This document shows, piece by piece, positions 4,066 through 32,747 of a stretch of DNA of 64,000 bases. The position numbers were made by a program, and so were the translations under genes. The stretch comes from Actinomycetes bacterium (GTDB lineage Bacteria > Actinomycetota > UBA4738 > HRBIN12): positions 30,125-94,124 of the forward strand of contig JANPEZ010000033.1 of assembly GCA_031423155.1 (NCBI GenBank). The letters are read 5' to 3'. The notes under the pieces are model-generated. The model saw only the letters and a list, made by a program, of their open reading frames with translations, was not told where the DNA came from and did no database searches. Position 1 is the stretch's first letter; every line of letters begins with the position of its first letter.

Positions 4066-5565
4066 TTGCCCGAGGTCCACGTCAATCCCACCCCCGAAGA
4101 GCTGAGGAAGTTCACCGAGGCGATGCCCCAGACCCGCATCTCCGGCTTCGGAAACACCAACACCCAGACGAAGGTCCTCTCCCGCAGCGCCGCCAGCACC
4201 CATGTGGTCGGCGGGCCCTCCAGTGGCAAGGTCATGACGCGCGAGGAGTTCGACCGCATCGCCGCCCTTCAGGACGCATTCATCGCCGAGCAGGACATGA
4301 TCGTGATCGACGGCTACATCGGCAACGCCCCGAACATGCGCACGGCGGCACGCCTGACCATCGAGAAGGCCAACGCCAACATCGCCGGCATGCAGCAGAA
4401 GCTCTACTTCGAGCGCAGCGACGGTGCCGCGCCCACCGTCCACGTCATCTACACCCCGAACCTGCCCGCCGAGGGCTACCCGGACGACCGACTCATAGCC
4501 GTCGACCTGGAGAACAACGTGACCCGCGTCCTCAACTCCGACTACTTCGGTGAGTCGAAGAAGGGCGGCCTGCGGATGTGGAACAACATCGTCTACGACA
4601 AGGGCGGGCTAGCTCTGCACGCCGGCCTCAAGGTCATCCCGACGGCCGACGGTGACAAGGTCTTCATGATCATCGGCCTGTCGGGCACCGGCAAGACGAC
4701 CACCACCTTCACGACCCAGAACGGCTCCAAGCCGATCCAGGACGACTTCGTCGGACTGATGCCGGGCGGTCACGCCTTCGGCACCGAGAACGGCTGCTTC
4801 GCAAAGACCTTCGCGCTCAACCCCGACTTCGAGCCCTCGATCCACGGCGCCGTCGTGAAGCCGACCACCTACCTGGAGAACGTTTACCAGGACGACACCG
4901 GCACGGTCAACTTCAACAACGAGAACTACACCCAGAACGGGCGCGCCGTCTTCGAGATGAGCGACCTGCTCTCCTTCGAGGACGCCCAGAACGTGGGAAC
5001 GGTGGACTACCTGCTGATACTCAACCGAAATGAGAACATCATCCCGGGCGTCGCCAAACTGAACCAGGAGCAGGCAGCGGCCTACTTCATGCTCGGCGAG
5101 ACGACCGGGACGTCCGCGGGCGGCGCGAGCGAGGCGGGTAAGTTTCTGCGGGTTCCTGGCACCAACCCGTTCTTCCCTCTCCCACATGGCTTGCAGGGCA
5201 ACAGGATGCTCGAACTGCTGGCATCGCACCCGATCGAGACGTACCTGCTCAACACCGGGCGCGTCGGGGGCAAGGACGGCGACGATCGCTCCAAGAAGGT
5301 CAAGATCCCGCACACGTCCGCTTGCGTGAAGGGCATCGCCGAGCAGACCATCGTCTTCGAAGAGGACCCCGACTTCGGCTACCAGGTGGCGTCGAGCGTC
5401 CCGGACTTCGACGACGCCGAGCTGCTCCAGCCCCGCAAGCTCTACGAACGCCAGGGTCGCGGCGAGGAGTACGCCCAGATCGTCGAGCGACTTAAGGGCG
5501 AGCGCGTCGAACGCCTCCAGGAGTTCCCCGAGCTCTCAGAGGAGATCATCAAGGCCGTCGGCTAA
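4066..5565 (+). CDS. pckA: phosphoenolpyruvate carboxykinase (ATP-dependent)
   Basis: 499 aa with the kinase-1a motif GLSGTGKTT and overall PEPCK-ATP architecture. TTG start with an AGGAGG SD 7 nt upstream. Confidence 0.85.
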   Translation: MPEVHVNPTPEELRKFTEAMPQTRISGFGNTNTQTKVLSRSAASTHVVGGPSSGKVMTREEFDRIAALQDAFIAEQDMIVIDGYIGNAPNMRTAARLTIEKANANIAGMQQKLYFERSDGAAPTVHVIYTPNLPAEGYPDDRLIAVDLENNVTRVLNSDYFGESKKGGLRMWNNIVYDKGGLALHAGLKVIPTADGDKVFMIIGLSGTGKTTTTFTTQNGSKPIQDDFVGLMPGGHAFGTENGCFAKTFALNPDFEPSIHGAVVKPTTYLENVYQDDTGTVNFNNENYTQNGRAVFEMSDLLSFEDAQNVGTVDYLLILNRNENIIPGVAKLNQEQAAAYFMLGETTGTSAGGASEAGKFLRVPGTNPFFPLPHGLQGNRMLELLASHPIETYLLNTGRVGGKDGDDRSKKVKIPHTSACVKGIAEQTIVFEEDPDFGYQVASSVPDFDDAELLQPRKLYERQGRGEEYAQIVERLKGERVERLQEFPELSEEIIKAVG

Positions 5566-5879
5566 GCCTTCGGGGTTCGCTTGCCGAGGAACTGGCTGCC
5601 GATCAACTGCATGGCCAACAGTACGCCGAGGAGCACTGCGACCCAGCGGACCTGAGCGGTTCCTGCGATGAGTGATGGATCTCCCGAGTTCGCCGCGCCG
5701 TAGAGCGCGAACATCCCTGCGAACGCGAACCAGGTCCCGATGCGACCGGTGAGGTAGACGGCGTACAGGAGGTGATCGGCGACGTCGGTGGAGTCGAACG
5801 GGCGGCGGATCCAGTAAGCAAGGGACCTGACGCCGAGCGCCGCGAACACGGCGGCCAGGACGAACTCGAATACCCTCAC
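5562..5879 (-). CDS. small integral membrane protein (3 predicted TM helices), hypothetical
   Basis: 105 aa, hydrophobic. Its start overlaps the stop of the upstream PRTase gene by 4 nt, suggesting co-transcription. Confidence 0.45.
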   Translation of the reverse strand: MRVFEFVLAAVFAALGVRSLAYWIRRPFDSTDVADHLLYAVYLTGRIGTWFAFAGMFALYGAANSGDPSLIAGTAQVRWVAVLLGVLLAMQLIGSQFLGKRTPKA

Positions 5880-6565
5880 TTCAACCCCTTCTCGGCGCGC
5901 GCGAGCGCCGCGACCACTTCCTCATCCGATGTCTGGCCGAACACTTCGTAGAACTCTCCCACGGAGTGGAAGGCAGAGGGCGTGTCCAGCACGACGACCT
6001 CGTCTGCCTCGCGTGTGAGCCGGGCGACGGACTGTCCGGCGGCAACCGGTACCGCGACGATGACCGTCGCCGCACCCCGGCCCCTGACCCACCTGACCGC
6101 CGCCACCGCGGTGGCTCCGGTAGCGATTCCGTCATCCACGACGACGACCGTGCGGCCATTCAGGGTCGGCTGAGGCCTCGCGCCCCTGAACGCCAGCGCG
6201 CGCCTGGTCATCTCCTCCTCCTGGGCCGCGACCTCGCTCTCGAGGTAGTCGCGCGTAACGTCGAGAACGTCTATCAACATCTCGTCCCAGACCTGAACGC
6301 CCGGGGCTACGGCGCCTATGGCGAGTTCTGCGTTGCCGGGGGCTCCGATCTTGCGCGGCACGACGATGTCGAGGCCGGCTCCGATAGCGGCCGCTACTTC
6401 CTCGGCCACCACGACCCCTCCTCGGGGTATCCCCAAGACGATGACGTCGCCGCTCAGGCGGCCGGCCAGGGCCGCCCCCAATCGCTTGCCGGCATCCCTC
6501 CTGTCCTTGAACATCTCCTCGATGATGGCACCGCGTTGGCCCTGGAGCGCGGTCGGGGCTAGCAT
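5876..6565 (-). CDS. phosphoribosyltransferase-domain protein (type I PRTase fold with C-terminal extension)
   Basis: Internal Met MLAPTALQ... then VVVVDDGIATGATAVAA, the PRPP-binding motif. The longer ORF to 6850 is rejected because it runs antisense through the Lrp-like gene. Confidence 0.7.
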   Translation of the reverse strand: MLAPTALQGQRGAIIEEMFKDRRDAGKRLGAALAGRLSGDVIVLGIPRGGVVVAEEVAAAIGAGLDIVVPRKIGAPGNAELAIGAVAPGVQVWDEMLIDVLDVTRDYLESEVAAQEEEMTRRALAFRGARPQPTLNGRTVVVVDDGIATGATAVAAVRWVRGRGAATVIVAVPVAAGQSVARLTREADEVVVLDTPSAFHSVGEFYEVFGQTSDEEVVAALARAEKGLK

Positions 6566-6592
6566 GGCCTCCCCAGAGCAGGAGGTCGCCGA

Positions 6593-6826
6593 GTGGTACA
6601 GGCTTACATCCTCATCCAGACCGAAGTCGGCAAGGCCGCTCAGGTGGCCAAGTCGGTGCGGGAGATATCCGGCGTCACCGAGGCCGAGGACGTAACGGGG
6701 CCGTACGACGTGATCGTGCGGGCCGAAGCCAAAACGGTGGATGAGCTGGGCAAGCTGGTCGTCGCGAGGATCCAGTCGGTCGAGGGGATCACGCGGACGC
6801 TGACCTGCCCGGTCGTTCACCTCTAG
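6593..6826 (+). CDS. stand-alone Lrp/AsnC-type C-terminal (RAM) regulatory-domain protein
   Basis: 77 aa, MVQAYILIQTEVGKAAQVAKSVREISGVTEAEDVTGPYDVIVRAEAKTVDELGKLV... GTG start with a GGAGG SD 7 nt upstream. Confidence 0.75.
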   Translation: MVQAYILIQTEVGKAAQVAKSVREISGVTEAEDVTGPYDVIVRAEAKTVDELGKLVVARIQSVEGITRTLTCPVVHL

Positions 6827-6886
6827 ATGCGCAGGTAGTTGACGGTTCAAGCCGCAAGCTCGCCGACGCCCTTATCCTGTGCATCG

Positions 6887-9800
6887 ATGAGGAGTGGATG
6901 GTCCAAGGCGCGCTTCGCGAAGGTCATGTCGGCCTGTGCTCTGATGCTGCCCCTCTTCGCACTGGACCTCGCCCCGGCCGGCGCGGCCTTCCCCGGCGTG
7001 AACGGCAAGATCGCGTTCGCCAACTCGGGGATCGGCACGGTCAACCCCAGCGGCGCCGGAGTCCAGGACCTGACGCCCACGGCCGGTGACCGCACTCCAT
7101 CATGGTCGGCCGATGGATCCCAGATCGCCTTCGAAAGCGGCGGCGACATCTGGGTGATGAACGCCGACGGCTCCTCCGCTATCGCCCTCACCAGCGACCC
7201 CGGAACGGATACAGCCCCGAGTTGGTCGTCCGATGGCACTCAGATCGCTTTCCAGACGGACCGAGACGGCAACGCCGAGATCTACGTCATGGACTCGGCC
7301 GGCGGTTCGCAGACGAACATCAGCTCGAACGCGGCGAGCGACACCACTCCGGCCTGGTCACCAGATGGAACTAAGATCGCGTTCGTCTCCGACAGAGACG
7401 CGAACGCGGAGGTCTACGTGATGGATGCCTCCGGCGCGTCGCCGGTGAACCTCACGTCCGATGCCGGGGAGGACAAGAACCCGAACTGGTCCCCCGACGG
7501 AACCAAGATCGCCTTCCAGTCCGATCGCACGGGGGACAATGAGGTGTTCTCGATGGGATCGGACGGTTCGGCTCAGGCCAACCTGACGAGCAGCGCCGGA
7601 ACCGCCGACTCCAACCCGGCCTGGTCCCCCGACGGGACGATGATCGCCTTCATCAGAGACCTTCAGCTGTTCACTATGGACTCCGCCGGGGCCGGTGGCG
7701 CAGCACTCATCGCGGACGCCGACACGCGCTCGGCTCCCGACTGGCAGCCCCTGACCTGCACGATTACCGGGAGCACCGGGGACGACAGCCTGAGCGGAAC
7801 GACGGGCGATGATGTGATCTGTGCCGACGCCGGGAACGATTCGATCGGCGACCTTGGGACGGGGATCGACACCGTGATCGGGGGCGACGGAACCGACACC
7901 GTCGATTTCACCTCGGCCTCGGCCGGAGTGACGGCCGACCTCTTCGACGAGTCGGCCACGGCCGACGGAGCGGCGACCCTGCGCGAGATAGAGAACCTCA
8001 CGGGTTCCCCGAGCGCCGACACCCTCATGGGAGATGCCGGCGCGAACTTGCTGGTCGGCTCGGGTGGGGACGACACCCTCACCGGTCGCGCCGGATCCGA
8101 CACGGCCGGCTATGCGAGTGCGCCGGGGCCCGTCGCGGTCGACCTTGCCGCCGGAACGGCCACGGGTGATGGAACCGACACCCTTGCCGGCACGGACGAC
8201 GTGATCGGCTCGGCGTTCGCAGATACGGTCGGAGGGAACTCGGGCGACAACTCCCTGATCGGAGGTGGTGGGAGCGACACGGTCTCCTTCGCCTCGTCCG
8301 CAGCGGGCGTTACGGCCGATCTCGCTACGGACACGGCCACGGGCGACGGGACCGACACGATCTCAGGGTTCGAGAACATCGCGGGGTCTCCCTCGGCGGA
8401 TTCGCTGACAGGAGGAAGCGGCGCGAACACCCTCACCGGCGACATGGGCTTCGACACTCTGGCGGGCGGCGGAGGAGATGACGTCATCAACGGCGGGCCG
8501 GGCACGGACACGCTCAGCTTCGCCGCCTCCCCAGCGGCGGTCACTGTCGACCTCGCCGCAGGAACGGCAACGGGCGAGGGCTCGGACACCCTCGCAACGA
8601 TGGAGAATGTGATCGGTTCTCCTCTGGACGATGTGATCGGCGGCAGCTCCCTGGACAACTCGTTCGATGGAGGCGCGGGCAGCGACACCGTGACCTTCGC
8701 CTCCTCCGCAGGCCCAGTCACGGCCGACATCGGAGCGGACACCGCTACCGGAGACGGGACCGACACGTTCGCCGGCATCGAGAACGTGACCGGCTCGGCG
8801 TTCGCCGATAGCCTCGCAGGCGACGCCACGGACAACGTCCTGGACGGTGGCGCTGGAGACGACTCGCTGAACGGTGGCGCCGGAGCCGACGGGATCACGT
8901 TCGCCGCTGCGCCGGCAGGCGTGAACGTGAACCTGCAGCTGGGGACCTCGACCGGCCACGGGAGCGACACGTTCGCCGGCATCGAGAACGTGACCGGCTC
9001 CGCATTCGCCGACCAGATCTCGGCGGTGGCTCACGGGAACGGTCGGCTGATCTTCGACAAGGGACCGGGGTCGGTGCTGGACATCTTCACCGTCGACCCG
9101 GCGGGTACCGGGATCGATCACGTCGTTGACAATCCCAACGACGACTACGACGCGGCCTGGTCGCCGTCGGGGTCTCGTTTCGTCTTCTCCTCCAACCGTG
9201 CGAACAACTACGAGTTGTACAGCGCGGCGGCGGGCGGCGGAACGCTCAAGCGCCTGACGAGCAACAGGGCCTTCGACGGCATGGCCTCCTACTCGCCTGA
9301 CGGAAAGCGCATCACGTTCGTCAGCAGCCGCGACGGCAACTACGAGATCTACACGATGAACATCGACGGATCGGGGCTGGATCGCCTGACCAAGAACCCG
9401 GCCGATGATTTCTACCCCTCGTTCTCACCGGACGGGACGCGCCTCGTCTTCCAGAGCGACCGCTCGGGCAACCCCGAGATCCACTCGATGAACGTCGACG
9501 GCACCGGCTTGAAGCGCCTGACCGACACCTCCGCGCCCAACCTGGAGCCGAACTGGTCGCCGGCCGGTGATCGGATCGTCTTCATGAGGACCATCGGGGG
9601 CCACCAGGAGATCTTCACGATGAGCGCGACCGGTGGCCTGCAGACCAGGCTGACGTTCAACAGCGCCGAGGACTTCGACCCTGCCTACTCCCCCGACGGC
9701 TCGCGGATCGCCTTCTCCTCGGACCGCGCGGGCAGTTACGACATCTACACGATGGCCGCCGATGGCTCCGACGTGGTTCAGGTGACCTCGACGCCCGGTC

Positions 9801-10177
9801 TGGAGGAGTACCCGAACTGGCAGTGGGTCTGCGCCATCGTCGGCGCGAGCGTCTCGAATTGCGGCGACGCGGTAGACAACGTCATCGAGGGCGGGGACGG
9901 CGCGGATGTGATCTTCGCCGGACGCGGGAACGACGTCGTGCACGGTGGACTTGGGGGCGACGTGATCTTGGGCGGTGGAGGCTCGGACCTGCTCTTCGGA
10001 GACGACGGAGCCGACCGGCTCCAGGCCGGACCGGGTGCGGGAGCCGATGTCTTGAAGGGCCTGGCCGGCGCCGACTTCCTGTTCGCCAAGGACGGAAAGG
10101 GCGACGACACCCTCGCCGGCGGCGCGGACTCCGACGGCTGCCAGGCCGACAGGAACGACACCTCGACCAGCTGCTAG
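6887..10177 (+). CDS. exported giant protein with two TolB-type PD40 beta-propeller domains and tandem RTX-like hemolysin-type Ca2+-binding modules
   Basis: Signal-peptide-like N-terminus MRSGWSKARFAKVMSACALMLPLFALDLAPAGAA. Seven or more PD40 repeats (SWSADGSQIAF, AWSPDGTKIAF...). Six 58-75-aa modules with GGxGxD nonapeptides. A second PD40 propeller, then a C-terminal Cys-bounded Ca-binding segment. Confidence 0.8.
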   Translation: MRSGWSKARFAKVMSACALMLPLFALDLAPAGAAFPGVNGKIAFANSGIGTVNPSGAGVQDLTPTAGDRTPSWSADGSQIAFESGGDIWVMNADGSSAIALTSDPGTDTAPSWSSDGTQIAFQTDRDGNAEIYVMDSAGGSQTNISSNAASDTTPAWSPDGTKIAFVSDRDANAEVYVMDASGASPVNLTSDAGEDKNPNWSPDGTKIAFQSDRTGDNEVFSMGSDGSAQANLTSSAGTADSNPAWSPDGTMIAFIRDLQLFTMDSAGAGGAALIADADTRSAPDWQPLTCTITGSTGDDSLSGTTGDDVICADAGNDSIGDLGTGIDTVIGGDGTDTVDFTSASAGVTADLFDESATADGAATLREIENLTGSPSADTLMGDAGANLLVGSGGDDTLTGRAGSDTAGYASAPGPVAVDLAAGTATGDGTDTLAGTDDVIGSAFADTVGGNSGDNSLIGGGGSDTVSFASSAAGVTADLATDTATGDGTDTISGFENIAGSPSADSLTGGSGANTLTGDMGFDTLAGGGGDDVINGGPGTDTLSFAASPAAVTVDLAAGTATGEGSDTLATMENVIGSPLDDVIGGSSLDNSFDGGAGSDTVTFASSAGPVTADIGADTATGDGTDTFAGIENVTGSAFADSLAGDATDNVLDGGAGDDSLNGGAGADGITFAAAPAGVNVNLQLGTSTGHGSDTFAGIENVTGSAFADQISAVAHGNGRLIFDKGPGSVLDIFTVDPAGTGIDHVVDNPNDDYDAAWSPSGSRFVFSSNRANNYELYSAAAGGGTLKRLTSNRAFDGMASYSPDGKRITFVSSRDGNYEIYTMNIDGSGLDRLTKNPADDFYPSFSPDGTRLVFQSDRSGNPEIHSMNVDGTGLKRLTDTSAPNLEPNWSPAGDRIVFMRTIGGHQEIFTMSATGGLQTRLTFNSAEDFDPAYSPDGSRIAFSSDRAGSYDIYTMAADGSDVVQVTSTPGLEEYPNWQWVCAIVGASVSNCGDAVDNVIEGGDGADVIFAGRGNDVVHGGLGGDVILGGGGSDLLFGDDGADRLQAGPGAGADVLKGLAGADFLFAKDGKGDDTLAGGADSDGCQADRNDTSTSC
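7897..9020 (+). repeat. intragenic tandem repeats (6 modules of about 175-225 nt) encoding the Ca2+-binding modules
   Basis: Near-identical about 50-nt stretches, e.g. gacacgttcgccggcatcgagaacgtgaccggctc at about 8760 and again at about 8965. Protein-level motif DTxxFxSxxxGVTADLxxDTATGDGTDTxxGIENVTGSxxADxLxG. Confidence 0.8.
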
Positions 10178-10178
10178 C

Positions 10179-11288
10179 TCAGCCGTCCAGTCCCCGGGCG
10201 CGCACGGACCGGCCGGCCTCGGCGTCGTAGCGTTCAACAGCCAGATCGACCAGACGACCGATCAGGTCGGGGTAGGACAGGCCGCTCGCCTCCCAGAGCT
10301 TCGGGTACATCGAGATCGATGTGAACCCCGGGATCGTGTTGATCTCGTTCAGCCAGAGTTCGTCCTCGCCCCGTAGGAAGAAGTCGACCCGAGCCATCCC
10401 GGCGCATCCCACCGCTCGGAATGCGGCGACCGACATGCTCTGGATCCGTTCGAGCACATCGGGCTTGACGTCTGCAGGGATGATCGACTCGCTGGAGTCA
10501 TCCAGATACTTCGCCTTGTAGTCGTAGAACTCGGCGTGGGGGATGATCTCGCCCGCCACCGAGGCGACGGGCTCATCATTGCCCAGTACCCCGCACTCGA
10601 TCTCCCGGATGCCGGCCAGACCCTTCTCCAAGACCGACTTGTTGCCGTAGCGGAAGGTCTCGTCCATCGAGGTGTCCAACTCCGAGGCATCGTGCACCTT
10701 GGAGATGCCGACGCTGGAGCCGAGCGTCGCCGGTTTGGCGAAGAGCGGATAGCCGAGGGCCTCGGCCCTGGCGCCGACGTCCTCGGGATCCTCCAGCCAC
10801 TCGGGCTCGCGGACGACCTCGTAAGGGCCGACGGGAAGCCCGGCGGCGGCGAACAGCACCTTCTGGACGGCCTTGTCCATGCCGATGGCCGAGCCGAGGA
10901 CTCCGGCGCCGACGTAGGCGACCCTGGCCAGTTCGAGCATCCCCTGCACCGATCCGTCCTCGCCGAAGGGACCGTGCAGGACCGGGAAGACGACGTCTAT
11001 GGCCTCTCGAGACCCGTCGGCCGCGACCAGCTCCCCGGAACCGGCCCGCGACGCAAGCTCGACCGCCGAGCCGGTTTCGCCCGTGATCTCGGGCATCCGT
11101 CCCGATTCCGACGGGAGCGCCGGCGCCCCCGGCATGACGTGCCAGGCCCCCTCTTTGGTTATCCCGATCGCAACCACGTCGAAGCGCTCCGGATCGAGGG
11201 CGTCCATCACGTATCGCGCGGAGATGCAGGAGATCTCATGCTCGGCTGAACGCCCTCCGAAGAGAACCGCGATACGCGTCTTGCTCAT
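10179..11288 (-). CDS. ddl: D-alanine--D-alanine ligase
   Basis: MSKTRIAVLFGGRSAEHEISCISA...NTIPGFT, the ATP-grasp Ddl signature. The ORF-track N-terminal 145-aa extension is rejected as low-complexity read-back. Confidence 0.9.
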   Translation of the reverse strand: MSKTRIAVLFGGRSAEHEISCISARYVMDALDPERFDVVAIGITKEGAWHVMPGAPALPSESGRMPEITGETGSAVELASRAGSGELVAADGSREAIDVVFPVLHGPFGEDGSVQGMLELARVAYVGAGVLGSAIGMDKAVQKVLFAAAGLPVGPYEVVREPEWLEDPEDVGARAEALGYPLFAKPATLGSSVGISKVHDASELDTSMDETFRYGNKSVLEKGLAGIREIECGVLGNDEPVASVAGEIIPHAEFYDYKAKYLDDSSESIIPADVKPDVLERIQSMSVAAFRAVGCAGMARVDFFLRGEDELWLNEINTIPGFTSISMYPKLWEASGLSYPDLIGRLVDLAVERYDAEAGRSVRARGLDG

Positions 11289-12457
11289 ACCTTGTCCAGC
11301 GCGCGCAGGAAGTCCTCGACGATGTCTTCGGTGTCTTCCAGTCCGACGCTTACCCTGATCAAGCCGTCGCTGACACCGGCGGCGCTGCGCTGCTCGGCAT
11401 CCATCTGGCGATGAGTCGTCGAGGCCGCGTGTCCCACTAGGGTGTGAGCCCCGCCGAGACTCGTTGCGATCCAACCCACTTCGAGGGCATCGCAGAGGGC
11501 CTTCCCGGCCTCGACTCCACCGGCGACATCGAAGGCCAACATCCCTCCGGGCGCTCGCAGGATCCGCTGGGCGACCGAGTGTTGAGGGTGCGAAGCGAGC
11601 CCGGGGTACCAGACCCGCTCGACCTTGGCGTGCTCCTCGAGAACACCGGCGAGCACCGTGGCGCTTCGCGTGTGCTGCTGCATCCGCAGCGAAAGCGTGA
11701 CCAAGCCCCGCATCGAGAGCCACGCCTCCAGGGGAGCCATCGTTCCCCCGTACTCGATCGCAAGATCACGCAGACGGCCGCGCCCGGCCTCGGACGTGCA
11801 GGCCACTCCCCCGATGAGATCGTTGTGGCCTCCGATGTACTTCGTGGCGGAGTGGATCACGTACTCGAACCCGAGGGCCGCCGGATTGCACAGGTACGGG
11901 GAGGCGATCGTGTTGTCGACGGCGGCCGGGACGCCGGCGTCGCGGCACAGCTCGCCGAGCGCCGACAGATCCGGAACCGTCACGTTCGGGTTCGCGATGG
12001 TCTCGACGTAGAAGAGGGCCGCACCCGGCAGAGCGGCCTTCACAGCGTCAAGATCGTGAGGATCGACGAACGTTACTTCCGCGCCGAACCTCGGCAGGAT
12101 CTTGGAGAACAGCGAGAACGCACCTCCGTAGAGTTCGTTGCTTGCCACGAGCCGGTCCCCGGAGGCCACGTGCGCCGTGACCACCGTGTGGATCGCGGCC
12201 ATGCCGGATGCGAAGGCGAAAGCTCCCTCGGTTCCCTCCAGGTCGGCCATCACGTTCTCGAACGCATCCACCGTCGGATTGCCGTAGCCGCGGGTGTAGG
12301 TGTAACCGGGTTTGCGGAAGGCGATGGTTTCGGCGTAGTCCTCTGAGGTATCGAATCGGAAGGTCGAGGTCTGGAACAAAGGAACGCTCGGGGTCTCCTG
12401 CTCGACCGGCGGCGTCTTGGCGCCGTGAACGGCCCGAGTCGAGAACCCATCAGCCAT
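11285..12457 (-). CDS. PLP-dependent Cys/Met-metabolism enzyme (cystathionine gamma-synthase / O-acylhomoserine sulfhydrylase / methionine gamma-lyase family)
   Basis: 390 aa with the SATKYIGGHNDLIGG PLP-lysine region typical of this family. Overlaps ddl by 4 nt. Confidence 0.85.
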   Translation of the reverse strand: MADGFSTRAVHGAKTPPVEQETPSVPLFQTSTFRFDTSEDYAETIAFRKPGYTYTRGYGNPTVDAFENVMADLEGTEGAFAFASGMAAIHTVVTAHVASGDRLVASNELYGGAFSLFSKILPRFGAEVTFVDPHDLDAVKAALPGAALFYVETIANPNVTVPDLSALGELCRDAGVPAAVDNTIASPYLCNPAALGFEYVIHSATKYIGGHNDLIGGVACTSEAGRGRLRDLAIEYGGTMAPLEAWLSMRGLVTLSLRMQQHTRSATVLAGVLEEHAKVERVWYPGLASHPQHSVAQRILRAPGGMLAFDVAGGVEAGKALCDALEVGWIATSLGGAHTLVGHAASTTHRQMDAEQRSAAGVSDGLIRVSVGLEDTEDIVEDFLRALDKV

Positions 12458-13141: not shown

Positions 13142-13759
13142 CTATCCCTCCTCCGGCTTGAACCTTTCGAGCAGCTTCCACGCCGCGGGCAGCAGTCCGG
13201 CGGCAAGGAGCATCTTGATGGTGTCTCCGATGACGAACGGGTACAGACCGTACTCCAGACCCGTTTCCAAGGGGACATCCAGGGATGCCATCAGCCAAGG
13301 CACGCCGATCGCATAGATCACGATGGATCCGAGGAGCATCGCTCCGATGGAGCTTCTGAGGTCGCGGTCCCAGCCCCGGCGCGAGAGCCAGCCGACCAGG
13401 GCCGAGGAGACGACGAAGGCCCACAGGTACCCGCCCGTCACGGAGGCCAGCTCCAAGACCGCTATCCCGGTGTCGTGAGAACCATCGGCGTTAGGGGCGA
13501 AGACCGCGAGACCGGCCACGCCCCATAGGAGATAAAGGGCCAGGGTCGCCGATCCGAGGGCCGGGCCATAGGCCGCACCGACCAGCAAGACGCCAAGCGT
13601 CTGTCCGGTGATCGGCACCGGCGTGAACGGCAGCGAGATCGACACCTGCGCGAGGCCTGCGATGAGTGCGCTGCCCGCGAACGCGCAAACCACCTGGAAC
13701 GCGGCGCGTGAGCTCGCCCGCGAACGCGGTGGAGCGAACGTGAGTGCTAGGGATGACAA
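13142..13759 (-). CDS. bioY: biotin transporter BioY
   Basis: 205 aa, hydrophobic, BioY-type sequence (VPITGQTLGVLLVG..., GxxxYLxG). Confidence 0.8.
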   Translation of the reverse strand: MSSLALTFAPPRSRASSRAAFQVVCAFAGSALIAGLAQVSISLPFTPVPITGQTLGVLLVGAAYGPALGSATLALYLLWGVAGLAVFAPNADGSHDTGIAVLELASVTGGYLWAFVVSSALVGWLSRRGWDRDLRSSIGAMLLGSIVIYAIGVPWLMASLDVPLETGLEYGLYPFVIGDTIKMLLAAGLLPAAWKLLERFKPEEG

Positions 13760-18943: not shown

Positions 18944-20554
18944 TCAGACGGCGTCGTGGACGACCCGTCCGGCCGCAAGGGTCATCTGAACCTTCGTGTC
19001 CCCCAGGGGACCAGGCTCGAAGACGTTGCGGTCGGCGACGACCAGATCGGCTCGCTTGCCGACCTCTATCGAACCGGCGTCGTCGTCGTGGTTGACGTAT
19101 GCGCTACCCCGGGTGAAAGCCGCAAGACAGGTCGGCAGGTCCAGAGCCTGTTCGGGAAGCAATGGTTCGCCGTCGCGGTTGCCCGGGTCGGTCCGGGTGA
19201 TGGCGACCTCCATCTCCAGGAAGGGGTTGGGCGAGCTGACTCCCCAGTCGCTCCCCATAGCCAGAACGGCACCGGAGCGCTGCATGTCTGCGAACGGGTA
19301 GAGCATCCGCGCGCGGTCGGGGCCAACCTTGGAGAGGGTCAGCTCCTCCATCTGGGGATCGTTGCAAGCCCAGAGGGGCTGGCAGTTCGCGACGACTCCG
19401 AGAGGGCGGAACCTCGAGACGTCTTGCGGCGTAACGAACTGCAGATGCGCGATGTGGTGGCGCAGGTCGCTCATGCCGTTTGCTGCTCGGGCGACTTCGA
19501 CGGCGTCCAATGCCTGCCGCACGGCCCTGTCGCCTATCGCGTGCATGTGAACCTGGAACTCGGCCGCGTCCAGCAGGGTCAGCGCTTCCTTCAGCGGTTC
19601 CGCATCCACGTATGAGATGCCCAATGGTCGGTCGCCTTCCCCGCACGGACCGAGATAGGGATCCAGCAGAGCGCAGGTGCAGTTCTCGACGACGCCGTCG
19701 GTCATGATCTTGACGGTGCTCGCTCGCAGGCGACCCCCGTCGGCCCAGGAGCGTTGCTCCTGAAAGCCCTCAACCTGCGAGGCGCCGCCGTGACGATCCC
19801 ACCAAAGCGCCGCCGAGACCCGCGCCGTGAGTTCGCCCGAGTCGGCCATCTCGCGGTAGACCTTCAACAGGTCGGGGCGTACCCAAGCGTCCTGCCAACC
19901 CGTGATCCCCAGAGGGTGCAGGAAACGCTGCGCGCGCAGGATCGCCTCCTTCCACTCGGACGCGTCCGGCTGTGGAACGAACCGTTCGTAGAACGAGTAC
20001 GCGGCTCCCTCGTGAAGCGAGCCGGTCGGCTCACCCGACGACGGGTCCTTCACGATGCGCCCGTCCCACGGATCGGGGGTCGAGGCATCTATCCCGGCCA
20101 GCTCCAGCGCCCGCGAGTTCACCCAGGCTCCGTGCACATCTTTGTTCATCAAGAACACGGGCCGGCCGGGCACGATCGTGTCCAGATCTCGCTTGTCGGG
20201 GTTGCCTCCCGGGAAGTCGAACATCGCCCATCCCCCGCCGATGATCCAGGGCTCATCGGGATGCACGGCCGCGTACTCGCCGATGTGATCGAGGTAGGCG
20301 CTCTTTCCCGAGAGGTGATCCAGGCGTACCCTCCCGAGGTCGCGGCCGGCGAAGGCCGGATGGATGTGGGCGTCGTGGAATCCCGGCAGGATCATCGGAC
20401 CGCGCACGACCTCGGCTTTGGGACCAGCAGCCTCGCGAACCTCCTCCTCGGTTCCGACCGCCGTTATCCGGTCCCCGGTGATGGCCACGGCCCGCGCCCA
20501 ACTCCGCGCGGCGTCCACCGTGTACACGTCTCCGAGCAGGACCAGGTCCGCCAT
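18944..20554 (-). CDS. amidohydrolase-3 family metal-dependent hydrolase
   Basis: MADLVLLGDVYTVD...ILPGFHDAHIHP (HxH metal site)...HAIGDRAV...GSDWGV. The ORF-track 168-aa N-terminal extension is rejected. Confidence 0.8.
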   Translation of the reverse strand: MADLVLLGDVYTVDAARSWARAVAITGDRITAVGTEEEVREAAGPKAEVVRGPMILPGFHDAHIHPAFAGRDLGRVRLDHLSGKSAYLDHIGEYAAVHPDEPWIIGGGWAMFDFPGGNPDKRDLDTIVPGRPVFLMNKDVHGAWVNSRALELAGIDASTPDPWDGRIVKDPSSGEPTGSLHEGAAYSFYERFVPQPDASEWKEAILRAQRFLHPLGITGWQDAWVRPDLLKVYREMADSGELTARVSAALWWDRHGGASQVEGFQEQRSWADGGRLRASTVKIMTDGVVENCTCALLDPYLGPCGEGDRPLGISYVDAEPLKEALTLLDAAEFQVHMHAIGDRAVRQALDAVEVARAANGMSDLRHHIAHLQFVTPQDVSRFRPLGVVANCQPLWACNDPQMEELTLSKVGPDRARMLYPFADMQRSGAVLAMGSDWGVSSPNPFLEMEVAITRTDPGNRDGEPLLPEQALDLPTCLAAFTRGSAYVNHDDDAGSIEVGKRADLVVADRNVFEPGPLGDTKVQMTLAAGRVVHDAV

Positions 20555-20629
20555 GGCGGGGCACGCTAGTCGCTCGGCCCCGGCCTCACAACCGGGCGGC
20601 GTAGACTTCGCCCTCGTGAGGACCATCAC

Positions 20630-21214
20630 ATGCAACTGACCCCCACCGAAGAAGAGCGCCTGCGGGTCTTCACCGCGGCCGAACTCGCTCGCAAGATTCT
20701 GGCCCGCGGACTGAAGTTGAGCGCTCCCGAAGCGGTAGCACTGGCGTGCGACGAGATGCACATGGCCGCGCGTGCGGGGGCCTCTTACGACGAGGTCGTT
20801 GCGGCCGGCTTCGCCGCCGTCGGCCCCGACCGAGTGATCGAAGGTGTCGCCGACATCGCGGCCGAGATCAGGGTCGAGGTCTCGATGGACGACGGCTCCA
20901 GGCTCGTCGTCTTGAGAGAGCCCTTCGGCCCGGCTGCAGACGGGGGCCCCGGGTCGGTCGCGTTCGCCGAGGGAGACATCGCGCTTGCGCCCGGGCGCGC
21001 ACGGATCCGGCTGAGCGTCACCAACACCTCGACCAAACCCGTGCGCGTTTCCTCTCATTTCCCGTTCGCGGAGACCAACGCCAAGCTCTCGTTCGACCGA
21101 GAAGCCGCCCGGGGGTTCCGGCTAGACCTGGCCGCCGGAGATTCACTGAGATGGGCGCCCGGCGAGACCAAGGAAGCCCCCCTGGTCGCGTACGCAGGCC
21201 AAAGCGATGCCTGA
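20630..21214 (+). CDS. ureAB: urease gamma-beta fused subunit
   Basis: N-terminal MQLTPTEEERLRVFTAAELARKILARGLKLSAPEAVAL matches UreA. C-terminal GDIALAPGRARIRLSVTNTSTKPVRVSSHFPFAETNAKLSFDREAARGFRLDLAAGDSLRW matches UreB. Confidence 0.9.
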   Translation: MQLTPTEEERLRVFTAAELARKILARGLKLSAPEAVALACDEMHMAARAGASYDEVVAAGFAAVGPDRVIEGVADIAAEIRVEVSMDDGSRLVVLREPFGPAADGGPGSVAFAEGDIALAPGRARIRLSVTNTSTKPVRVSSHFPFAETNAKLSFDREAARGFRLDLAAGDSLRWAPGETKEAPLVAYAGQSDA

Positions 21215-22901
21215 GTCCATCTCGCGGGCCGAACACGCCCTCCGCCACGGCCCGACCACCGGGGACATCGTGCGCTTGGGCGACACGAACCTTCACATCC
21301 GGATCGAACGGGACCTGACCGACCCTGCCGACCAGGCGCTGTGGGGATACGCGAAGAACTTCCGCTCGAGGATGAGCCAGTTCGACCGCGCGACCTCCGA
21401 GAGCGAGCTGGACGCCGTGATCGGCGGGGCCATCGTGATCGACCCCACGATAGGCATCGTCAAGGCCGACGTCGGCATCAAGGACGGCCGCATCGTCGGC
21501 ATAGGACGGGCCGGCAACCCCGACATCACCGACGGCGTCGACCTGACGATCGGACCGGGAACCTGGCCCATCCCTTGCCACGGCCTGATCATCACCGCCG
21601 GCGCGATCGATACCCATGTTCACCTGCTCTCGCCGCGGCTGATCCCTGTGGCTCTTTCCGCCGGGGTAACGACGTTGATCACTGCGGGTTTCGAGGAGCC
21701 CGCGTGGCGGATGCTTCGAACCCTAGAGGCCTTCGAGCGCACTCCGGTCAACATCGGCATCCAAGCGTCCGCTCGTACCGAGGTGCCGGGTTACGCCGAG
21801 AGGGTCATCGAGTCCGGCGCGGTCGGTCTGAAGATCCACGAGGATTGGGGCGCCTACCCGCGCATCGTCGACGCGACCTGCTCGGTGGCCGACGCCTACG
21901 ACGTCGCGGTGTGCATGCACACGGATGGCCTGAACGAGTCGTGCGAACTGGATGAGACCGTCGCCGCCATCGCCGGACGGACCGTGCACGCCTACCACGT
22001 CGAGGGCACGGGGGGCGGTCACATCCCCGACCTGCTCGCGATCGTGCGAGAGCCGAACGTCATCTGCTCCTCCACCACTCCGGGTCTGCCGTACGGAGTC
22101 TCGGCCGCGAGCGAAGCCGTGGACATGATCCTCATCGCCCACGAGGGGAACCCCGGCGTGCTTGCGGACCTGGAGGGCGCGCGGGAGCGCGTTCGCCACA
22201 CGACGATGGCCGCCGAGGGACCGCTGCACGAGCTGGGCGCCATATCCATCATCAACAGCGACTCGCAGGGGATGGGCCGCATCGGCGAGACCGTGCGCAG
22301 AACCTGGCAGCTCGCCCACGTGATGAAAGCGTGGCGCGGGACCGAAGCGGGCTCGCGGTGGCTGCCCGACGAAGGGACCGACGACAATGAGCGCGTCCTC
22401 AGGTACCTGGCGAAGTACACCATCGAGCCGGCCATCACGCACGGCATCTCAGGGGAAGTCGGCTCGCTTGTGCCCGGCCATCTGGCCGACCTGGTCCTTT
22501 GGGATCCGGCCTCCTTCGGCGCGAAGCCGTTGGCCGTGATGAAGGGTGGGGTCGTTTCCTGGAGCGCGATGGGCGAAGGCAACGCCTCGATCCACGGATC
22601 CGAACCGACGCGATACGGCCCAGACTGGGGCGCGGAAGGTGACGCGTCAGCTGCCCTTTCCACCACCTTCGTCTCGGCCGCCGCAAGAGATCGGGATATC
22701 GCGGCGACCCTGGGTACCCGCAGGCGCGTCGTCGCGGTCGCAGGGACCAGAGGATTGAGCCGAGCAGACCTGCTCCTCAACCGGAGCATCGCCACGATCG
22801 AGGTCGCGCCCGGGGATGGAACCGTGACCCTGGACGGTCGCGTCCTGGCCGCCGAACCCGTCCGCGAAGTTCCCCTGGGCCGGCGCTACTTCCTCTCGTA
22901 G
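21207..22901 (+). CDS. ureC: urease alpha subunit
   Basis: 564 aa with GAIDTHVHL, KIHEDWGA, MHTDGLNE and INSDSQGMGR motifs. 8-nt ATGCCTGA overlap with ureAB. Confidence 0.9.
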   Translation: MPESISRAEHALRHGPTTGDIVRLGDTNLHIRIERDLTDPADQALWGYAKNFRSRMSQFDRATSESELDAVIGGAIVIDPTIGIVKADVGIKDGRIVGIGRAGNPDITDGVDLTIGPGTWPIPCHGLIITAGAIDTHVHLLSPRLIPVALSAGVTTLITAGFEEPAWRMLRTLEAFERTPVNIGIQASARTEVPGYAERVIESGAVGLKIHEDWGAYPRIVDATCSVADAYDVAVCMHTDGLNESCELDETVAAIAGRTVHAYHVEGTGGGHIPDLLAIVREPNVICSSTTPGLPYGVSAASEAVDMILIAHEGNPGVLADLEGARERVRHTTMAAEGPLHELGAISIINSDSQGMGRIGETVRRTWQLAHVMKAWRGTEAGSRWLPDEGTDDNERVLRYLAKYTIEPAITHGISGEVGSLVPGHLADLVLWDPASFGAKPLAVMKGGVVSWSAMGEGNASIHGSEPTRYGPDWGAEGDASAALSTTFVSAAARDRDIAATLGTRRRVVAVAGTRGLSRADLLLNRSIATIEVAPGDGTVTLDGRVLAAEPVREVPLGRRYFLS

Positions 22902-30530: not shown

Positions 30531-30614
30531 CCAACGCATTGCCGCAATGGCGAAGCGTGTGGTCTGATGCCTGACCCCAGGATGAGGGCCGCCCCACCTA
30601 TCCAGGCAAGGAGC

Positions 30615-32219: not shown

Positions 32220-32747
32220 ATGACGGGCGTTCCCGAATCGGAAACGGTCGTCGGTGAAGGCATAAGGGACATCCCCCCTCCGTGGCCTGTGGACAACGCG
32301 ACCCTCGCGGCTCGGATGGATCGCATCGGCATGCGCCCTGTCGATCCGGACACCCTGGATCCCCAGCGCCGATATGTTCACATCGATGTAGTGATCGGCG
32401 GCAAGCCCGTTACGGTTCCGGCCGACATCGGCATCGGGCCAGGTATCACCGCGCCTATCCAGACCCACGATCCCTCGGGAGTCGTCACGGTGATCGGTGA
32501 GGAGTCCTACTCGCTTCGAGCCCTCTTCGCGATCTGGGGCGTGCGGTTCACGGCCAACGAGATAGGAGACGTCTGCAACGAGGGCGGGCGTGTACTGAGG
32601 GTCTTCGTCGACGGCAGACCTAACGTCGGCGACCTGCTCAACATCCCGTTGGTCGCGGACGAGGGGAACCAGGAGATACTCGTCGTCTACGGAACGGAGT
32701 CCGAGTTGCCCAGTCCCCTGCCATCGAGCTACCCGTTCCCCGACTAG
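32220..32747 (+). CDS. hypothetical 175-aa domain protein, possibly the extracytoplasmic domain of a membrane-anchored protein
   Basis: No SD before the ATG. In the same frame as the upstream TM ORF across a single TGA at 32196-32198. Confidence 0.5.

What the first reader, a model, noticed from the sequence alone, without database searches (positions are those of the whole stretch)
6887..10177. 1112-aa exported protein combining two TolB-type PD40 beta-propellers with tandem RTX-like Ca2+-binding modules
The domain order is signal peptide, PD40 propeller (7 or more blades), Cys-initiated RTX block, six tandem 58-75-aa TxxGxGxDT...IENVxGSxxADxL modules, a second PD40 propeller, then a Cys-bounded C-terminal RTX segment. 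PD40 propellers are typical of TolB and surface peptidases. Fusing them to hemolysin-type repeats in an actinobacterial-like genome is uncommon. The near-identical nucleotide repeats could also drive repeat-number variation.
Basis: seen in the sequence. Interest (0 to 1): 0.5.

Follow-up and report, generated by a model that had tools for sequence, protein, structure and literature searches.

The report
Exported double-propeller, calcium-rod protein

Summary
Window 6887-10177 (+) is an intact ORF of 1096 aa counted from ATG 6887, or 1112 aa from TTG 6839. It has a Sec-type signal peptide, a PD40 propeller, a Cys-started RTX block, six RTX modules of 58-77 aa, a second PD40 propeller and a Cys-bounded RTX tail. 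Pfam gives PD40 6.5e-93 and HemolysinCabind 1.2e-39.

Two details are wrong:
- Each propeller has six blades, as in TolB, not seven or more.
- The modules are 56-64% identical in DNA, not near-identical, so recombination-driven copy-number change is unlikely.

AlphaFold predicts the 437-aa stretch between the propellers as one continuous beta-roll (pLDDT 94.8). Its closest solved fold is the CyaA RTX domain.

No catalytic domain, sortase motif or type I secretion gene was found in the protein or the 64-kb window. The host is an uncultured Actinomycetota lineage.

PD40 fused to a Cys-capped RTX segment recurs in Actinomycetota MAGs, usually with one propeller. At the same LrpC|ddl locus, relatives carry a 502-aa version (one propeller, one module), partial copies of the long version, or no gene.

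My reading is a Sec-exported, Ca2+-stiffened binding protein with two heads. That function is inferred, not shown. Interest is modest.

The parts
6887..10177 (+). Complete gene: 1096 codons plus stop. The alternative TTG start at 6839 would give 1112 aa.
   Evidence: ORF list and translation. The gene call on the identical Logan contig L158 starts at window 6887. GC3 is 0.85.
6887..6985 (+). Sec-type signal peptide, aa 1-33: MRSGWSKARFAKVMSACALMLPLFALDLAPAGA|AF. The cleavage site is inferred.
   Evidence: This is the only hydrophobic segment in the protein (KD-19 above 1.6 only at aa 10-35). It has a basic n-region and an AGA at -3..-1. Homologues have equivalent signal peptides followed by the same (A)FPGxNGKIAF first strand. 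No signal-peptide predictor was available.
6986..7756 (+). N-terminal six-bladed PD40 (TolB-type) beta-propeller, aa 34-290.
   Evidence: Pfam PD40. AlphaFold pLDDT above 90 with 24 strands. TolB is the best match in the PDB by sequence and by fold. It is 34% identical to propeller 2.
7757..7873 (+). Cys-started RTX block, aa 291-329 (C291-x20-C312): CTITGSTGDDSLSGTTGDDVIC...
   Evidence: Sequence. The same C...DV(I/F)C motif follows the propeller or the signal peptide in L001, L003, L008, L045, L106 and L138.
7874..9040 (+). Six tandem RTX modules, aa 330-718. Nucleotide spans are m1 7874-8077, m2 8078-8254, m3 8255-8485, m4 8486-8662, m5 8663-8866 and m6 8867-9040. Together with the Cys block they form one beta-roll rod.
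   Evidence: Module alignment and direct-repeat family D2. AlphaFold of aa 287-723 gives pLDDT 94.8, pTM 0.89 and 49 short strands with no helix. Foldseek matches CyaA RTX 7usl_C at 1.2e-16. There are 14 GxGxD motifs and 65 acidic against 2 basic residues.
9041..9826 (+). C-terminal six-bladed PD40 beta-propeller, aa 719-980.
   Evidence: Pfam PD40. AlphaFold pLDDT above 90 with 24 strands. TolB sequence matches 666/679-979. It is 48.7% identical to the propeller of positional ortholog L001.
9827..10174 (+). Cys-bounded C-terminal RTX segment, aa 981-1096 (C982-x9-C992 ... six GxGxD ... C1085-x10-C1096, the last residue).
   Evidence: HemolysinCabind and RTX NCBIfam hits at aa 992-1084. All four Cys keep identical spacing in orthologs L001 and L163. 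The AlphaFold model is low-confidence here.
6593..6826 (+). Upstream syntenic anchor: a 77-aa stand-alone Lrp/AsnC ligand-binding-domain protein, 60 bp upstream on the same strand. Context only, not part of the protein.
   Evidence: Pfam AsnC_trans_reg. It is 88-95% identical in L001, L138 and L159.
10179..11300 (-). Downstream syntenic anchor: convergent D-Ala-D-Ala ligase, whose stop lies 1 nt from the stop of the PD40-RTX gene. Context only.
   Evidence: Pfam Dala_Dala_lig_N/C. The same convergent ddl follows the gene in L001 and L163 and directly abuts LrpC in L159-L162.

Best explanation
The gene encodes a non-enzymatic extracellular protein of an uncultured, presumably single-membrane Actinomycetota bacterium.

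Proposed steps:
1. The protein is exported unfolded through Sec, using a cleavable N-terminal signal peptide (inferred from sequence).
2. Outside the cell, Ca2+ neutralises the very acidic Gly/Asp-rich repeats. Residues 291-718 then fold into one continuous RTX beta-roll rod. The fold is predicted. The length of roughly 10-12 nm is inferred from about 24 turns at 4.8 A rise per turn.
3. The six cysteines of the mature protein form three local disulfides that cap the beta-rolls (inferred from conserved spacing and from what is known of actinobacterial oxidative folding).
4. The result is a dumbbell: two six-bladed TolB-type PD40 propellers held apart by the rod, with a short capped beta-roll at the C-terminus.
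5. The propellers are the likely ligand-binding heads, by analogy with TolB, which binds Pal and colicin peptides on its propeller, and with the substrate-gating propellers of S9 peptidases. The protein would therefore act as a two-headed, Ca2+-dependent binder or cross-linker of envelope or environmental polymers, in the manner of an adhesin. The ligand is unknown.

The gene is a fast-evolving accessory gene at a conserved LrpC|ddl locus. Its domain content differs between lineages.
For: **Architecture**
- Domain content and order.
- Six-bladed propellers at pLDDT above 90. TolB is the best fold match at E 1e-19 and a strong sequence match at 6e-30.
- The rod is predicted at pLDDT 94.8 and pTM 0.89 as uninterrupted short strands. 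It matches the CyaA RTX domain, RTX lipases and serralysins.

**Export**
- The only hydrophobic segment is N-terminal.
- The signal peptide plus first strand is conserved in homologues.
- The gene caller starts the gene at 6887.
- No HlyB, HlyD or TolC-like gene and no sortase was seen among about 40 ORFs scanned across the 64-kb window.
- Linhartova et al. 2010 (PMC3034196) noted RTX genes in six Actinobacteria genomes, none of which had type I secretion components.

**Ca2+ dependence**
- There are 20 GxGxD motifs in the RTX parts.
- The rod has 65 acidic and 2 basic residues, and the mature protein has a net charge of about -115.

**Disulfides**
- The mature protein has an even count of 6 Cys.
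- Cys spacing is conserved in L001 and L163.
- RTX-only homologues of the rod have a median of 0 Cys.
- Exported proteins of aerobic Actinobacteria show an even-Cys bias, and these bacteria have Dsb-like oxidases (PMC2823432).

**No enzyme**
- No catalytic Pfam or NCBIfam domain was found at E <= 0.1.

**Propeller-stalk-propeller design recurs**
- P0044 and P0060 use Ig-like repeats as the spacer, and P0080 uses Calx-beta.

**Accessory and fast-evolving**
- L001 is fully syntenic and carries a 502-aa version. L159-L162 are syntenic without the gene. L138 and L163 carry orthologous ends.
- The protein is 46% identical to its L001 ortholog, against 57-95% for the flanking genes with a Pfam-assigned function.
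Against: - No experiment or signal-peptide predictor supports export. There is no obvious Shine-Dalgarno sequence before ATG 6887.
- The binding function is pure analogy. No ligand, partner gene or conserved neighbour was found.
- The full-length model has pTM 0.45, and the C-terminal tail is low-confidence. The dumbbell geometry and the disulfide pairings are therefore not shown.
- No cell-wall anchoring motif was found, so attachment to the cell, which an adhesin needs, is unexplained.
- CylK shows that a fusion of a beta-roll and a propeller can be an enzyme (PMC8916777).
Confidence: 0.55

Rival explanations
1. It is a classical RTX exoprotein (toxin or adhesin) secreted through a type I secretion system by means of a C-terminal signal.
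For: Abundant HemolysinCabind repeats. The fold matches CyaA. The closest relatives of the rod are giant, Cys-free RTX proteins without signal peptides, typical of type I secretion substrates.
Against: The protein has an N-terminal signal peptide. It ends in a conserved Cys-x10-Cys rather than a typical unstructured secretion signal. No ABC/MFP/OMP exporter genes lie in the 64 kb. The host is Actinomycetota, where RTX genes without type I secretion systems have been noted (PMC3034196).
Confidence: 0.05
2. It is a TolB ortholog, a component of the Tol-Pal system.
For: NCBIfam TIGR02800 scores 363.8 bits against a cut-off of 343.15. TolB structures are the best PDB matches.
Against: The NCBIfam score is summed over six stretches from two propellers. 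There is no TolB N-terminal domain hit and no tolQRA/pal genes nearby. The gene is absent from syntenic relatives. The host phylum is Actinomycetota, which by general knowledge is typically single-membraned; that was not tested here.
Confidence: 0.02
3. It is an enzyme whose active site lies in a propeller or at an interface between beta-roll and propeller, as in CylK, or it is the substrate-gating part of a peptidase.
For: CylK is a functional fusion of a beta-roll and a propeller (PMC8916777). DPPIV_N and S9-type propeller hits are present.
Against: There is no alpha/beta-hydrolase or other catalytic domain. CylK has a seven-bladed propeller and does not appear among sequence matches at E <= 1e-5. 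No peptidase gene is adjacent here or in homologous loci.
Confidence: 0.12
4. It is a structural surface-layer or envelope lattice protein, an RTX S-layer like RsaA.
For: It is exported, very acidic and Ca2+-binding. The rod gives a weak fold match to RsaA (E 0.05).
Against: There is no anchoring domain or motif. It is missing from a closely syntenic lineage and differs twofold in length between lineages, which is unlike a core envelope component. The RsaA match is weak.
Confidence: 0.1
5. It is an assembly chimera or a pseudogene, not a real single protein.
For: It comes from a metagenome-assembled contig. The exact protein is not in the large protein collection, although its neighbours are.
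Against: A separate Logan assembly is 100% identical over 4540-8790. Orthologs are collinear over aa 30-475 (L138), 629-1095 (L001) and 923-1096 (L163). The frame is uninterrupted and GC3 is uniform.
Confidence: 0.03

Closest known systems
TolB C-terminal domain (E. coli, PDB 1C5K/1CRZ/2HQS)
   Same: A six-bladed PD40 beta-propeller. It is the best fold match (E 1e-19, rmsd about 3.2 A over 282 columns) and a strong sequence match (E 1e-26 to 6e-30).
   Different: This protein has no TolB N-terminal alpha/beta domain and no Tol-Pal gene context. It has two propellers, sits in an Actinomycetota host, and is an accessory gene.
RTX domain of Bordetella adenylate cyclase toxin CyaA (PDB 7USL, 7RAH, 6SUS)
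   Same: Ca2+-binding parallel beta-roll built of GGxGxD nonapeptides arranged in blocks. It is the best sequence match (1.6e-32) and the best fold match for the rod (1.2e-16).
   Different: CyaA is exported by type I secretion, C-terminus first, has no signal peptide and is essentially Cys-free in its RTX part. This protein has an N-terminal signal peptide and conserved Cys pairs, and its rod is internal, between two propellers.
Giant 'beta strand repeat-containing / calcium-binding' RTX proteins of Proteobacteria (for example P0034 from Bradyrhizobium, P0065 from Flavisphingomonas)
   Same: They share the same 59-77-aa module, GGxGxDT..Y....V.V.L..G...G.A.GDTL..IEN..GS...D.L.G....N.L.GG, at 37-49% identity to the rod.
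   Different: They consist of RTX modules only (Pfam PF00353 alone) and reach more than 4000 aa. Most have no signal peptide, and their median Cys count is 0. None has a propeller.
Actinomycetota PD40 propeller + Cys-capped RTX proteins (uncharacterised: L001, L002, L003, L008, L042, L045, L069, L106)
   Same: A signal peptide, a six-bladed-type PD40 propeller with a DWQP closing strand, then Cys...Cys, RTX repeats and a terminal C-x9-11-C. L001 sits at the same locus.
   Different: All have a single propeller and no or one module, and are 400-550 aa. The window protein has a second, N-terminal propeller and six modules.
CylK (PDB 7RON), a fusion of a Ca2+-binding beta-roll and a beta-propeller
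   Same: It is a published precedent for a beta-roll fused to a beta-propeller in one polypeptide (PMC8916777).
   Different: CylK is a cyanobacterial biosynthetic alkylating enzyme with a seven-bladed propeller and an atypical, short beta-roll packed on the propeller face. No sequence similarity was detected here.
Multi-domain exported PD40 proteins with other spacers (P0044 and P0060 with Ig-like PF10342 repeats; P0080 with Calx-beta)
   Same: A signal peptide, a PD40 propeller, a tandem-repeat stalk and a second PD40 propeller. P0044 aligns over query aa 14-978.
   Different: The stalk is built of Ig-like or Calx-beta domains, not an RTX beta-roll. These proteins are also uncharacterised.

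Membership tests
RTX protein family in the strict sense (type I secretion substrates, Linhartova et al. 2010) | Tandem Gly/Asp-rich nonapeptide repeats (GGxGxDxUx) that form a Ca2+-binding beta-roll. | tested here: met
   PF00353 in 10 stretches, E 1.2e-39. Twenty GxGxD motifs. Beta-roll model at pLDDT 94.8. CyaA fold match. Ca2+ binding itself was not tested.
RTX protein family in the strict sense (type I secretion substrates, Linhartova et al. 2010) | No N-terminal signal peptide; an uncleaved C-terminal secretion signal. | tested here: not met
   An N-terminal basic and hydrophobic signal-peptide-like segment is the only hydrophobic stretch, and it is conserved in homologues. The C-terminus is a conserved Cys-x10-Cys.
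RTX protein family in the strict sense (type I secretion substrates, Linhartova et al. 2010) | Cognate ABC transporter, membrane fusion protein and outer-membrane channel genes. | tested here: not met
   None was found among about 40 ORFs across the 64-kb window. The rest of the genome could not be examined.
TolB (Tol-Pal system) | Six-bladed PD40 beta-propeller. | tested here: met
TolB (Tol-Pal system) | N-terminal alpha/beta TolB_N domain that contacts TolA. | tested here: not met
   No TolB_N hit in Pfam at E <= 0.1. The propeller starts directly after the signal peptide.
TolB (Tol-Pal system) | tol-pal gene cluster and a periplasmic location in a double-membrane cell. | tested here: not met
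   The neighbours are pckA, a phosphoribosyltransferase, lrpC, ddl, metB and plsC. The host is Actinomycetota. The gene is absent from syntenic relatives.
TolB (Tol-Pal system) | NCBIfam TIGR02800 equivalog score above the cut-off. | tested here: inconclusive
   363.8 bits against 343.15, but summed over six stretches from two propellers. The best stretch covers only profile positions 240-341.
S9 serine peptidases (DPP IV, acylaminoacyl peptidase) | C-terminal alpha/beta-hydrolase catalytic domain with a Ser-Asp-His triad. | tested here: not met
   Only propeller-region models hit (DPPIV_N, Peptidase_S9_N). No Peptidase_S9 domain was found.
CylK-type enzymes (beta-roll fused to a propeller) | Seven-bladed propeller with the beta-roll packed on its top face; catalytic Arg and Tyr at the interface. 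| tested here: not met
   The propellers here are six-bladed PD40. There is no sequence match to 7RON at E <= 1e-5. Interface residues were not testable because the full-model pTM is 0.45.
Actinomycetota Sec-type PD40 + Cys-capped RTX proteins (a grouping defined here) | Signal peptide; PD40 propeller ending in a DWQP-like closing strand; a Cys pair at the start of the RTX part; RTX repeats; C-x9-11-C at the C-terminus. | tested here: met
   All features are present. They are shared with L001, L003, L008, L045, L106 and L163. L001 is syntenic.
Sortase-anchored or fibrillar adhesins of Gram-positive bacteria | C-terminal LPxTG-type sorting signal with a hydrophobic tail, or an SLH, LysM or other wall-binding domain. 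| tested here: not met
   There is no sortase-like motif, no second hydrophobic segment and no wall-binding Pfam domain.

The most novel reading that the evidence does not exclude
The protein represents a lineage of RTX beta-rolls in single-membrane Actinomycetota that does not depend on type I secretion and is exported through Sec. In this reading, conserved disulfide caps (Cys-x20-Cys at the N-terminal end, Cys-x10-Cys at the C-terminus) take over the role of the C-terminal folding nucleus of classical RTX proteins, which would allow Ca2+-driven folding in the N-to-C direction. The beta-roll would have been recruited as a rigid spacer that grows by adding modules (one module in L001, six here), so that two TolB-like propellers can bind or cross-link extracellular ligands at a fixed distance.
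Probability: 0.3. Interest if true: 0.45.

Novelty: new variant of a known kind. Interest (0 to 1): 0.3.

Why it matters
[quoted passage not shown] A conserved, Sec-exported, Cys-capped RTX rod in Actinomycetota would show that the beta-roll is used independently of that secretion route. The review cited here (PMC3034196) records the same puzzle, RTX genes in Actinobacteria without type I secretion components, without resolving it.
- **An evolutionary series.** One conserved locus (LrpC|ddl) holds no gene, a version with one propeller and one module, or a version with two propellers and six modules. This is a clean natural series for studying domain accretion in surface proteins.
- **Possible practical use.** The rod is a confidently predicted beta-roll of about 430 aa and could serve as a Ca2+-switchable scaffold.
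- **Limits.** The function of secreted PD40 propellers in Gram-positive bacteria remains unknown. This case adds a candidate, not an answer.

Tried and rejected
1. **Exact look-ups.** Looking up the protein, with two alternative starts, in the 15-billion-protein collection and the contig index found nothing. Look-ups of PckA and P0138 also failed. The source was reached only through the 77-aa LrpC protein.
2. **Whole-protein homolog search.** The top 120 hits are giant proteins made only of PD40 or only of RTX repeats, because HMMER sums repeat scores. This was useless for finding proteins with the same architecture.
3. **Exhaustive representative search with aa 925-1096.** It gave 195,435 hits, and the top 150 are again repeat giants. 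It allowed no census of the family.
4. **Word-index search with the same query.** It returned mostly proteins shorter than 300 aa. It yielded only the ortholog fragment P0259 (L163) and P0281.
5. **Metagenome scan with the rod.** It found no close ortholog apart from the 1.7-kb L138. The rest are giant RTX proteins.
6. **First AlphaFold run with a mixed alignment.** It left the RTX parts below pLDDT 50. For the rod this was solved by a second run with an RTX-only alignment. The C-terminal tail remains unmodelled.
7. **afdb50 fold search.** The library was not available.
8. **Promoter and terminator scan.** It found nothing above chance.
9. **Neighbours of family members.** There is no conserved partner gene. 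LuxR-type regulators, DapF and a NAGPA-like protein each appear only once or twice.
10. **Literature searches for PD40+RTX or secreted PD40 proteins in Gram-positive bacteria.** No paper addresses this fusion.
11. **A lipoprotein reading of Cys17 (MSAC).** I rejected it because the hydrophobic core lies after that Cys, not before it.
12. **Tat export.** I rejected it because there is no twin-arginine motif.

Full report

Window 6839..10177 (+) is one uninterrupted ORF. Its GC3 is 0.85, typical of the surrounding genes.

The most likely start is ATG 6887. A Logan assembly contig (L158, run SRR20217180) is 100% identical to window 4540-8790, and the gene call on it begins at the position equal to 6887. 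The product is then 1096 aa.

Pfam finds PD40 in 10 stretches (E 6.5e-93) and HemolysinCabind in 10 stretches (E 1.2e-39). It finds no catalytic, anchoring or TolB_N domain. NCBIfam gives only TolB-propeller and RTX-type partial matches.

| Part | Residues | Notes |
|---|---|---|
| Signal-peptide-like N-terminus | 1-33 | MRSGWSKARFAKVMSACALMLPLFALDLAPAGA\|AF |
| Propeller 1 | 34-290 | PD40 |
| Cys-started RTX block | 291-329 | C291-x20-C312 |
| Six modules | 330-718 | 68, 59, 77, 59, 68 and 58 aa |
| Propeller 2 | 719-980 | PD40 |
| RTX tail | 981-1096 | C982-x9-C992 and C1085-x10-C1096 |

**2. What had to be corrected**

- *Blade number.* Each propeller has five [WYF]SxxG repeats plus an opening strand and a closing (D/N)WQ(P/W) strand. 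AlphaFold models both propellers at pLDDT above 90 with 24 strands each. That is six four-stranded blades, as in TolB, not 'seven or more'.
- *DNA repeats.* Tandem Repeats Finder reports no array. The modules are 39-60% identical in protein and 56-64% in codon-threaded DNA. The best local stretch is 90% over 68 nt, between modules 5 and 6. The suggestion that near-identical repeats drive copy-number change is therefore not supported.

**3. Structure**

The full-length model has pTM 0.45, and the RTX parts are poor in it. I re-ran aa 287-723 alone with an alignment of RTX homologues that are 37-49% identical. This gave mean pLDDT 94.8 and pTM 0.89, with 49 short strands at a spacing of about nine residues and no helices. 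That is one continuous beta-roll.

Foldseek against the PDB gives these best matches:
- Rod: CyaA RTX domain 7usl_C (1.2e-16), then 7rah and 6sus, then RTX lipases and serralysins. RsaA matches only weakly.
- Full model: TolB structures (E about 1e-19, rmsd about 3.2 A over 282 columns).

Sequence search of the PDB agrees, with CyaA at 1.6e-32 and TolB at 6e-30 to 2e-26.

The rod carries 14 GxGxD motifs and the tail carries 6. The rod has 65 acidic and only 2 basic residues. The mature protein has a net charge of about -115.

From 49 strands, about two strands per turn and 4.8 A rise per turn, I infer a rod of about 10-12 nm. This rests on the standard geometry of beta-rolls and was not measured on the model.

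**4. Export and anchoring**

- The N-terminal segment is the only hydrophobic stretch in the protein. There is no LPxTG-like motif.
- Homologues have equivalent signal peptides followed by the same first propeller strand, (A)FPGxNGKIAF.
- About 40 ORFs across the 64-kb window were scanned against Pfam. They are mostly housekeeping and transport genes, among them pckA, ddl, metB, plsC, bioY, cofC, gltX, gatAB, ligA and serA. No HlyB, HlyD or TolC-type exporter and no sortase is among them.
- The best named relatives of the GltX encoded in the window are 'Actinomycetota bacterium' MAGs at 74-78% identity. A CofC gene for F420 synthesis is consistent with that placement.
- The RTX review by Linhartova et al. 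reported RTX genes in six Actinobacteria genomes, none with type I secretion components (PMC3034196).

Sec export of an unfolded, acidic chain, followed by Ca2+-driven folding outside the cell, is therefore the most economical reading. It is inferred, not shown.

**5. The cysteines**

After removal of the signal peptide, the protein has six Cys in three local pairs. The four C-terminal Cys keep identical spacing in the orthologs:
- L001: ...PACTAFTGGPANCG... and ...DNCRKDTGDPAVSC*
- L163: ...RTCSVSGASTLNCG... and ...DRCLSDGADRRLSC*

.

The CT(I/V)(T/S)G...DDV(I/F)C start motif recurs in L001, L138, L106, L008 and L045.

By contrast, 29 RTX-only homologues of the rod have a median of 0 Cys, or 0.73 per 1000 aa, and most lack signal peptides. 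Four of them do have a signal-peptide-like N-terminus and two or more Cys (P0041, P0067, P0085, P0092). Two of these four, P0067 and P0092, are labelled Acidimicrobiales or Actinomycetota.

Exported proteins of aerobic Actinobacteria show an even-Cys bias, and these bacteria possess Dsb-like oxidases (PMC2823432). Disulfide caps on the beta-rolls are therefore plausible.

**6. Relatives and locus history**

No full-length ortholog was found in any collection searched. The pieces and the locus are nevertheless informative.

- *The fusion recurs.* Eight of 80 related genome loci encode a signal peptide, one PD40 propeller and a Cys-capped RTX segment, in proteins of 400-550 aa. Seven are labelled Gaiellaceae, Acidimicrobiales, Microthrixaceae, Rubrobacter, Solirubrobacterales or 'Actinobacteria'. 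The eighth, L001, is labelled only 'bacterium'. Pfam confirmed both domain types in the 7 that were scanned. L106 is a further example from a metagenome. The fusion is thus uncommon overall, but it is a recurrent and uncharacterised actinobacterial family.
- *A positional ortholog with a shorter protein.* L001 (MAG nzgw114) is collinear with the window across ThiD, PckA, a phosphoribosyltransferase, LrpC (95% identical), the PD40-RTX gene, convergent Ddl, MetB, PlsC, BioY and CofC. Its protein has 502 aa: signal peptide, Cys block, one module, one propeller and the Cys tail. It aligns to aa 629-1095 of the window protein at 46% identity.
- *Partial orthologs of the long form.*
  - L138 has LrpC followed by an ortholog of the N-terminal half (53-58% identical). 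It contains a propeller, the Cys block and at least two modules. It also has an apparent frameshift.
  - L163 has the C-terminal 174 aa (59% identical) and a convergent ddl.
- *A lineage without the gene.* In four syntenic JGI contigs (L159-L162, about 72% nucleotide identity), LrpC directly abuts ddl and the gene is absent.

The LrpC|ddl site therefore holds a variable accessory gene. The protein also diverges faster than its neighbours: 46% identity to L001, against 57-95% for the flanking genes with a Pfam-assigned function. Which direction the change took is unresolved. The extra N-terminal propeller and five modules may have been gained here or lost in L001. The two propellers are only 34% identical to each other, so there was no recent internal duplication.

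**7. Design parallels**

Other exported PD40 proteins have the same propeller-stalk-propeller layout with different stalks. P0044 and P0060 use four or five Ig-like PF10342 repeats, and P0080 uses Calx-beta.

The 59-77-aa module is the common unit of giant RTX proteins in Proteobacteria and in many metagenomes. Its pattern is GGxGxDT..Y....V.V.L..G...G...DTL..IEN..GS...D.L.G....N.L.GG.

CylK is a published fusion of a beta-roll and a propeller. It is an enzyme with a seven-bladed propeller and shows no detectable sequence relationship to this protein.

**8. Mechanism and confidence**

| Status | Claims |
|---|---|
| Shown or strongly supported | Domain content and order; six-bladed TolB-type propellers; a continuous RTX-type beta-roll between them; no catalytic or anchoring domain; an Actinomycetota host; accessory status at a conserved locus |
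| Inferred | Sec export and cleavage at A33\|A34; Ca2+-dependent folding; three disulfides; dumbbell geometry |
| Speculative | Function as a two-headed extracellular binder or cross-linker, with the propellers as ligand-binding heads |

No ligand, partner gene or conserved neighbour was found.

I rate the rivals as follows: type I secretion toxin or adhesin 0.05, TolB ortholog 0.02, CylK-like or peptidase-related enzyme 0.12, S-layer protein 0.10, and assembly artefact 0.03.

**9. Novelty and interest**

Both building blocks are textbook domains. The fusion already exists as an unstudied actinobacterial family, and the propeller-stalk-propeller plan exists with other stalks.

Three things appear to be new:
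- this particular combination of two propellers and a 430-aa RTX rod, for which no second full-length example was found;
- the conserved, Sec-linked, Cys-capped form of the beta-roll;
- the locus series that shows domain accretion or loss.

This is a new variant of a known kind. A specialist would find it mildly interesting, and it does not open a long-standing question on its own. I score interest at 0.3.

Noticed in passing
window 30567-32072 (+), flanked by 27141-28619 (-) and 32744-34180 (-): This is a second RTX protein, 502 aa, with HemolysinCabind in 8 stretches. It has a lipoprotein-like signal (…AVASASC) and two RTX units, each bounded by the same Cys pattern (C…DxxIC … C-x8-10-C). 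It lies between two PF04185 phosphoesterase genes (phospholipase C or acid phosphatase family). The placement hints at a link between Cys-capped RTX proteins and extracellular phosphoesterases in this genome.
   Followed up: partly
window 6593-6826 (+): A stand-alone 77-aa Lrp/AsnC ligand-binding-domain protein with no DNA-binding domain lies 60 bp upstream on the same strand. It is 88-95% identical across lineages whose other proteins are 55-80% identical, and its 90%-identity cluster has 227 members. It may be co-transcribed with the PD40-RTX gene.
   Followed up: partly
window 6827-10229 compared with L159 8234-8288 (also L160-L162): There is a presence/absence polymorphism. In four syntenic metagenome contigs, LrpC and ddl are directly adjacent and overlap convergently, with no PD40-RTX gene. 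In the window the two convergent stop codons are only 1 nt apart.
   Followed up: yes
L138 (Ga0307305_10064260), about nt 880-990: The ortholog in this 1.7-kb soil-type contig switches reading frame between the fourth and fifth propeller blades. This is either a sequencing error or a pseudogenised copy.
   Followed up: no
window 13142-13756 (-): A BioY biotin-transporter gene lies between plsC and cofC in the window and in L001. It is absent at that position in L159 and L160, which makes a second small gene-content difference within the same syntenic block.
   Followed up: partly
window 10179-11723 (-) and 35233-36957 (-): The maximal ORFs of ddl (514 aa) and gltX (574 aa) overshoot the real genes (about 373 aa and 473 aa) by 100-140 codons. 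This is a typical high-GC artefact. The longest-ORF coordinates in this window, including the 1112-aa figure, should not be taken as gene starts.
   Followed up: partly
window 18944-21055 (-) and 21207-22898 (+): These are divergently oriented amidohydrolase genes. The second carries a urease-alpha N-terminal domain, but no urease beta, gamma or accessory genes are nearby. It is followed by an ABC importer (22989-24122, 25334-26260). This may be a non-urease amidohydrolase system.
   Followed up: no
window 49506-52529 (+) and 53259-54098 (+): A 1008-aa FtsX-type permease lies near an ABC ATPase, in a MacB/DevC-like arrangement. I checked it as a possible exporter for the RTX protein. It does not resemble a type I secretion ABC/MFP pair, and it lies 40 kb away.
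   Followed up: partly
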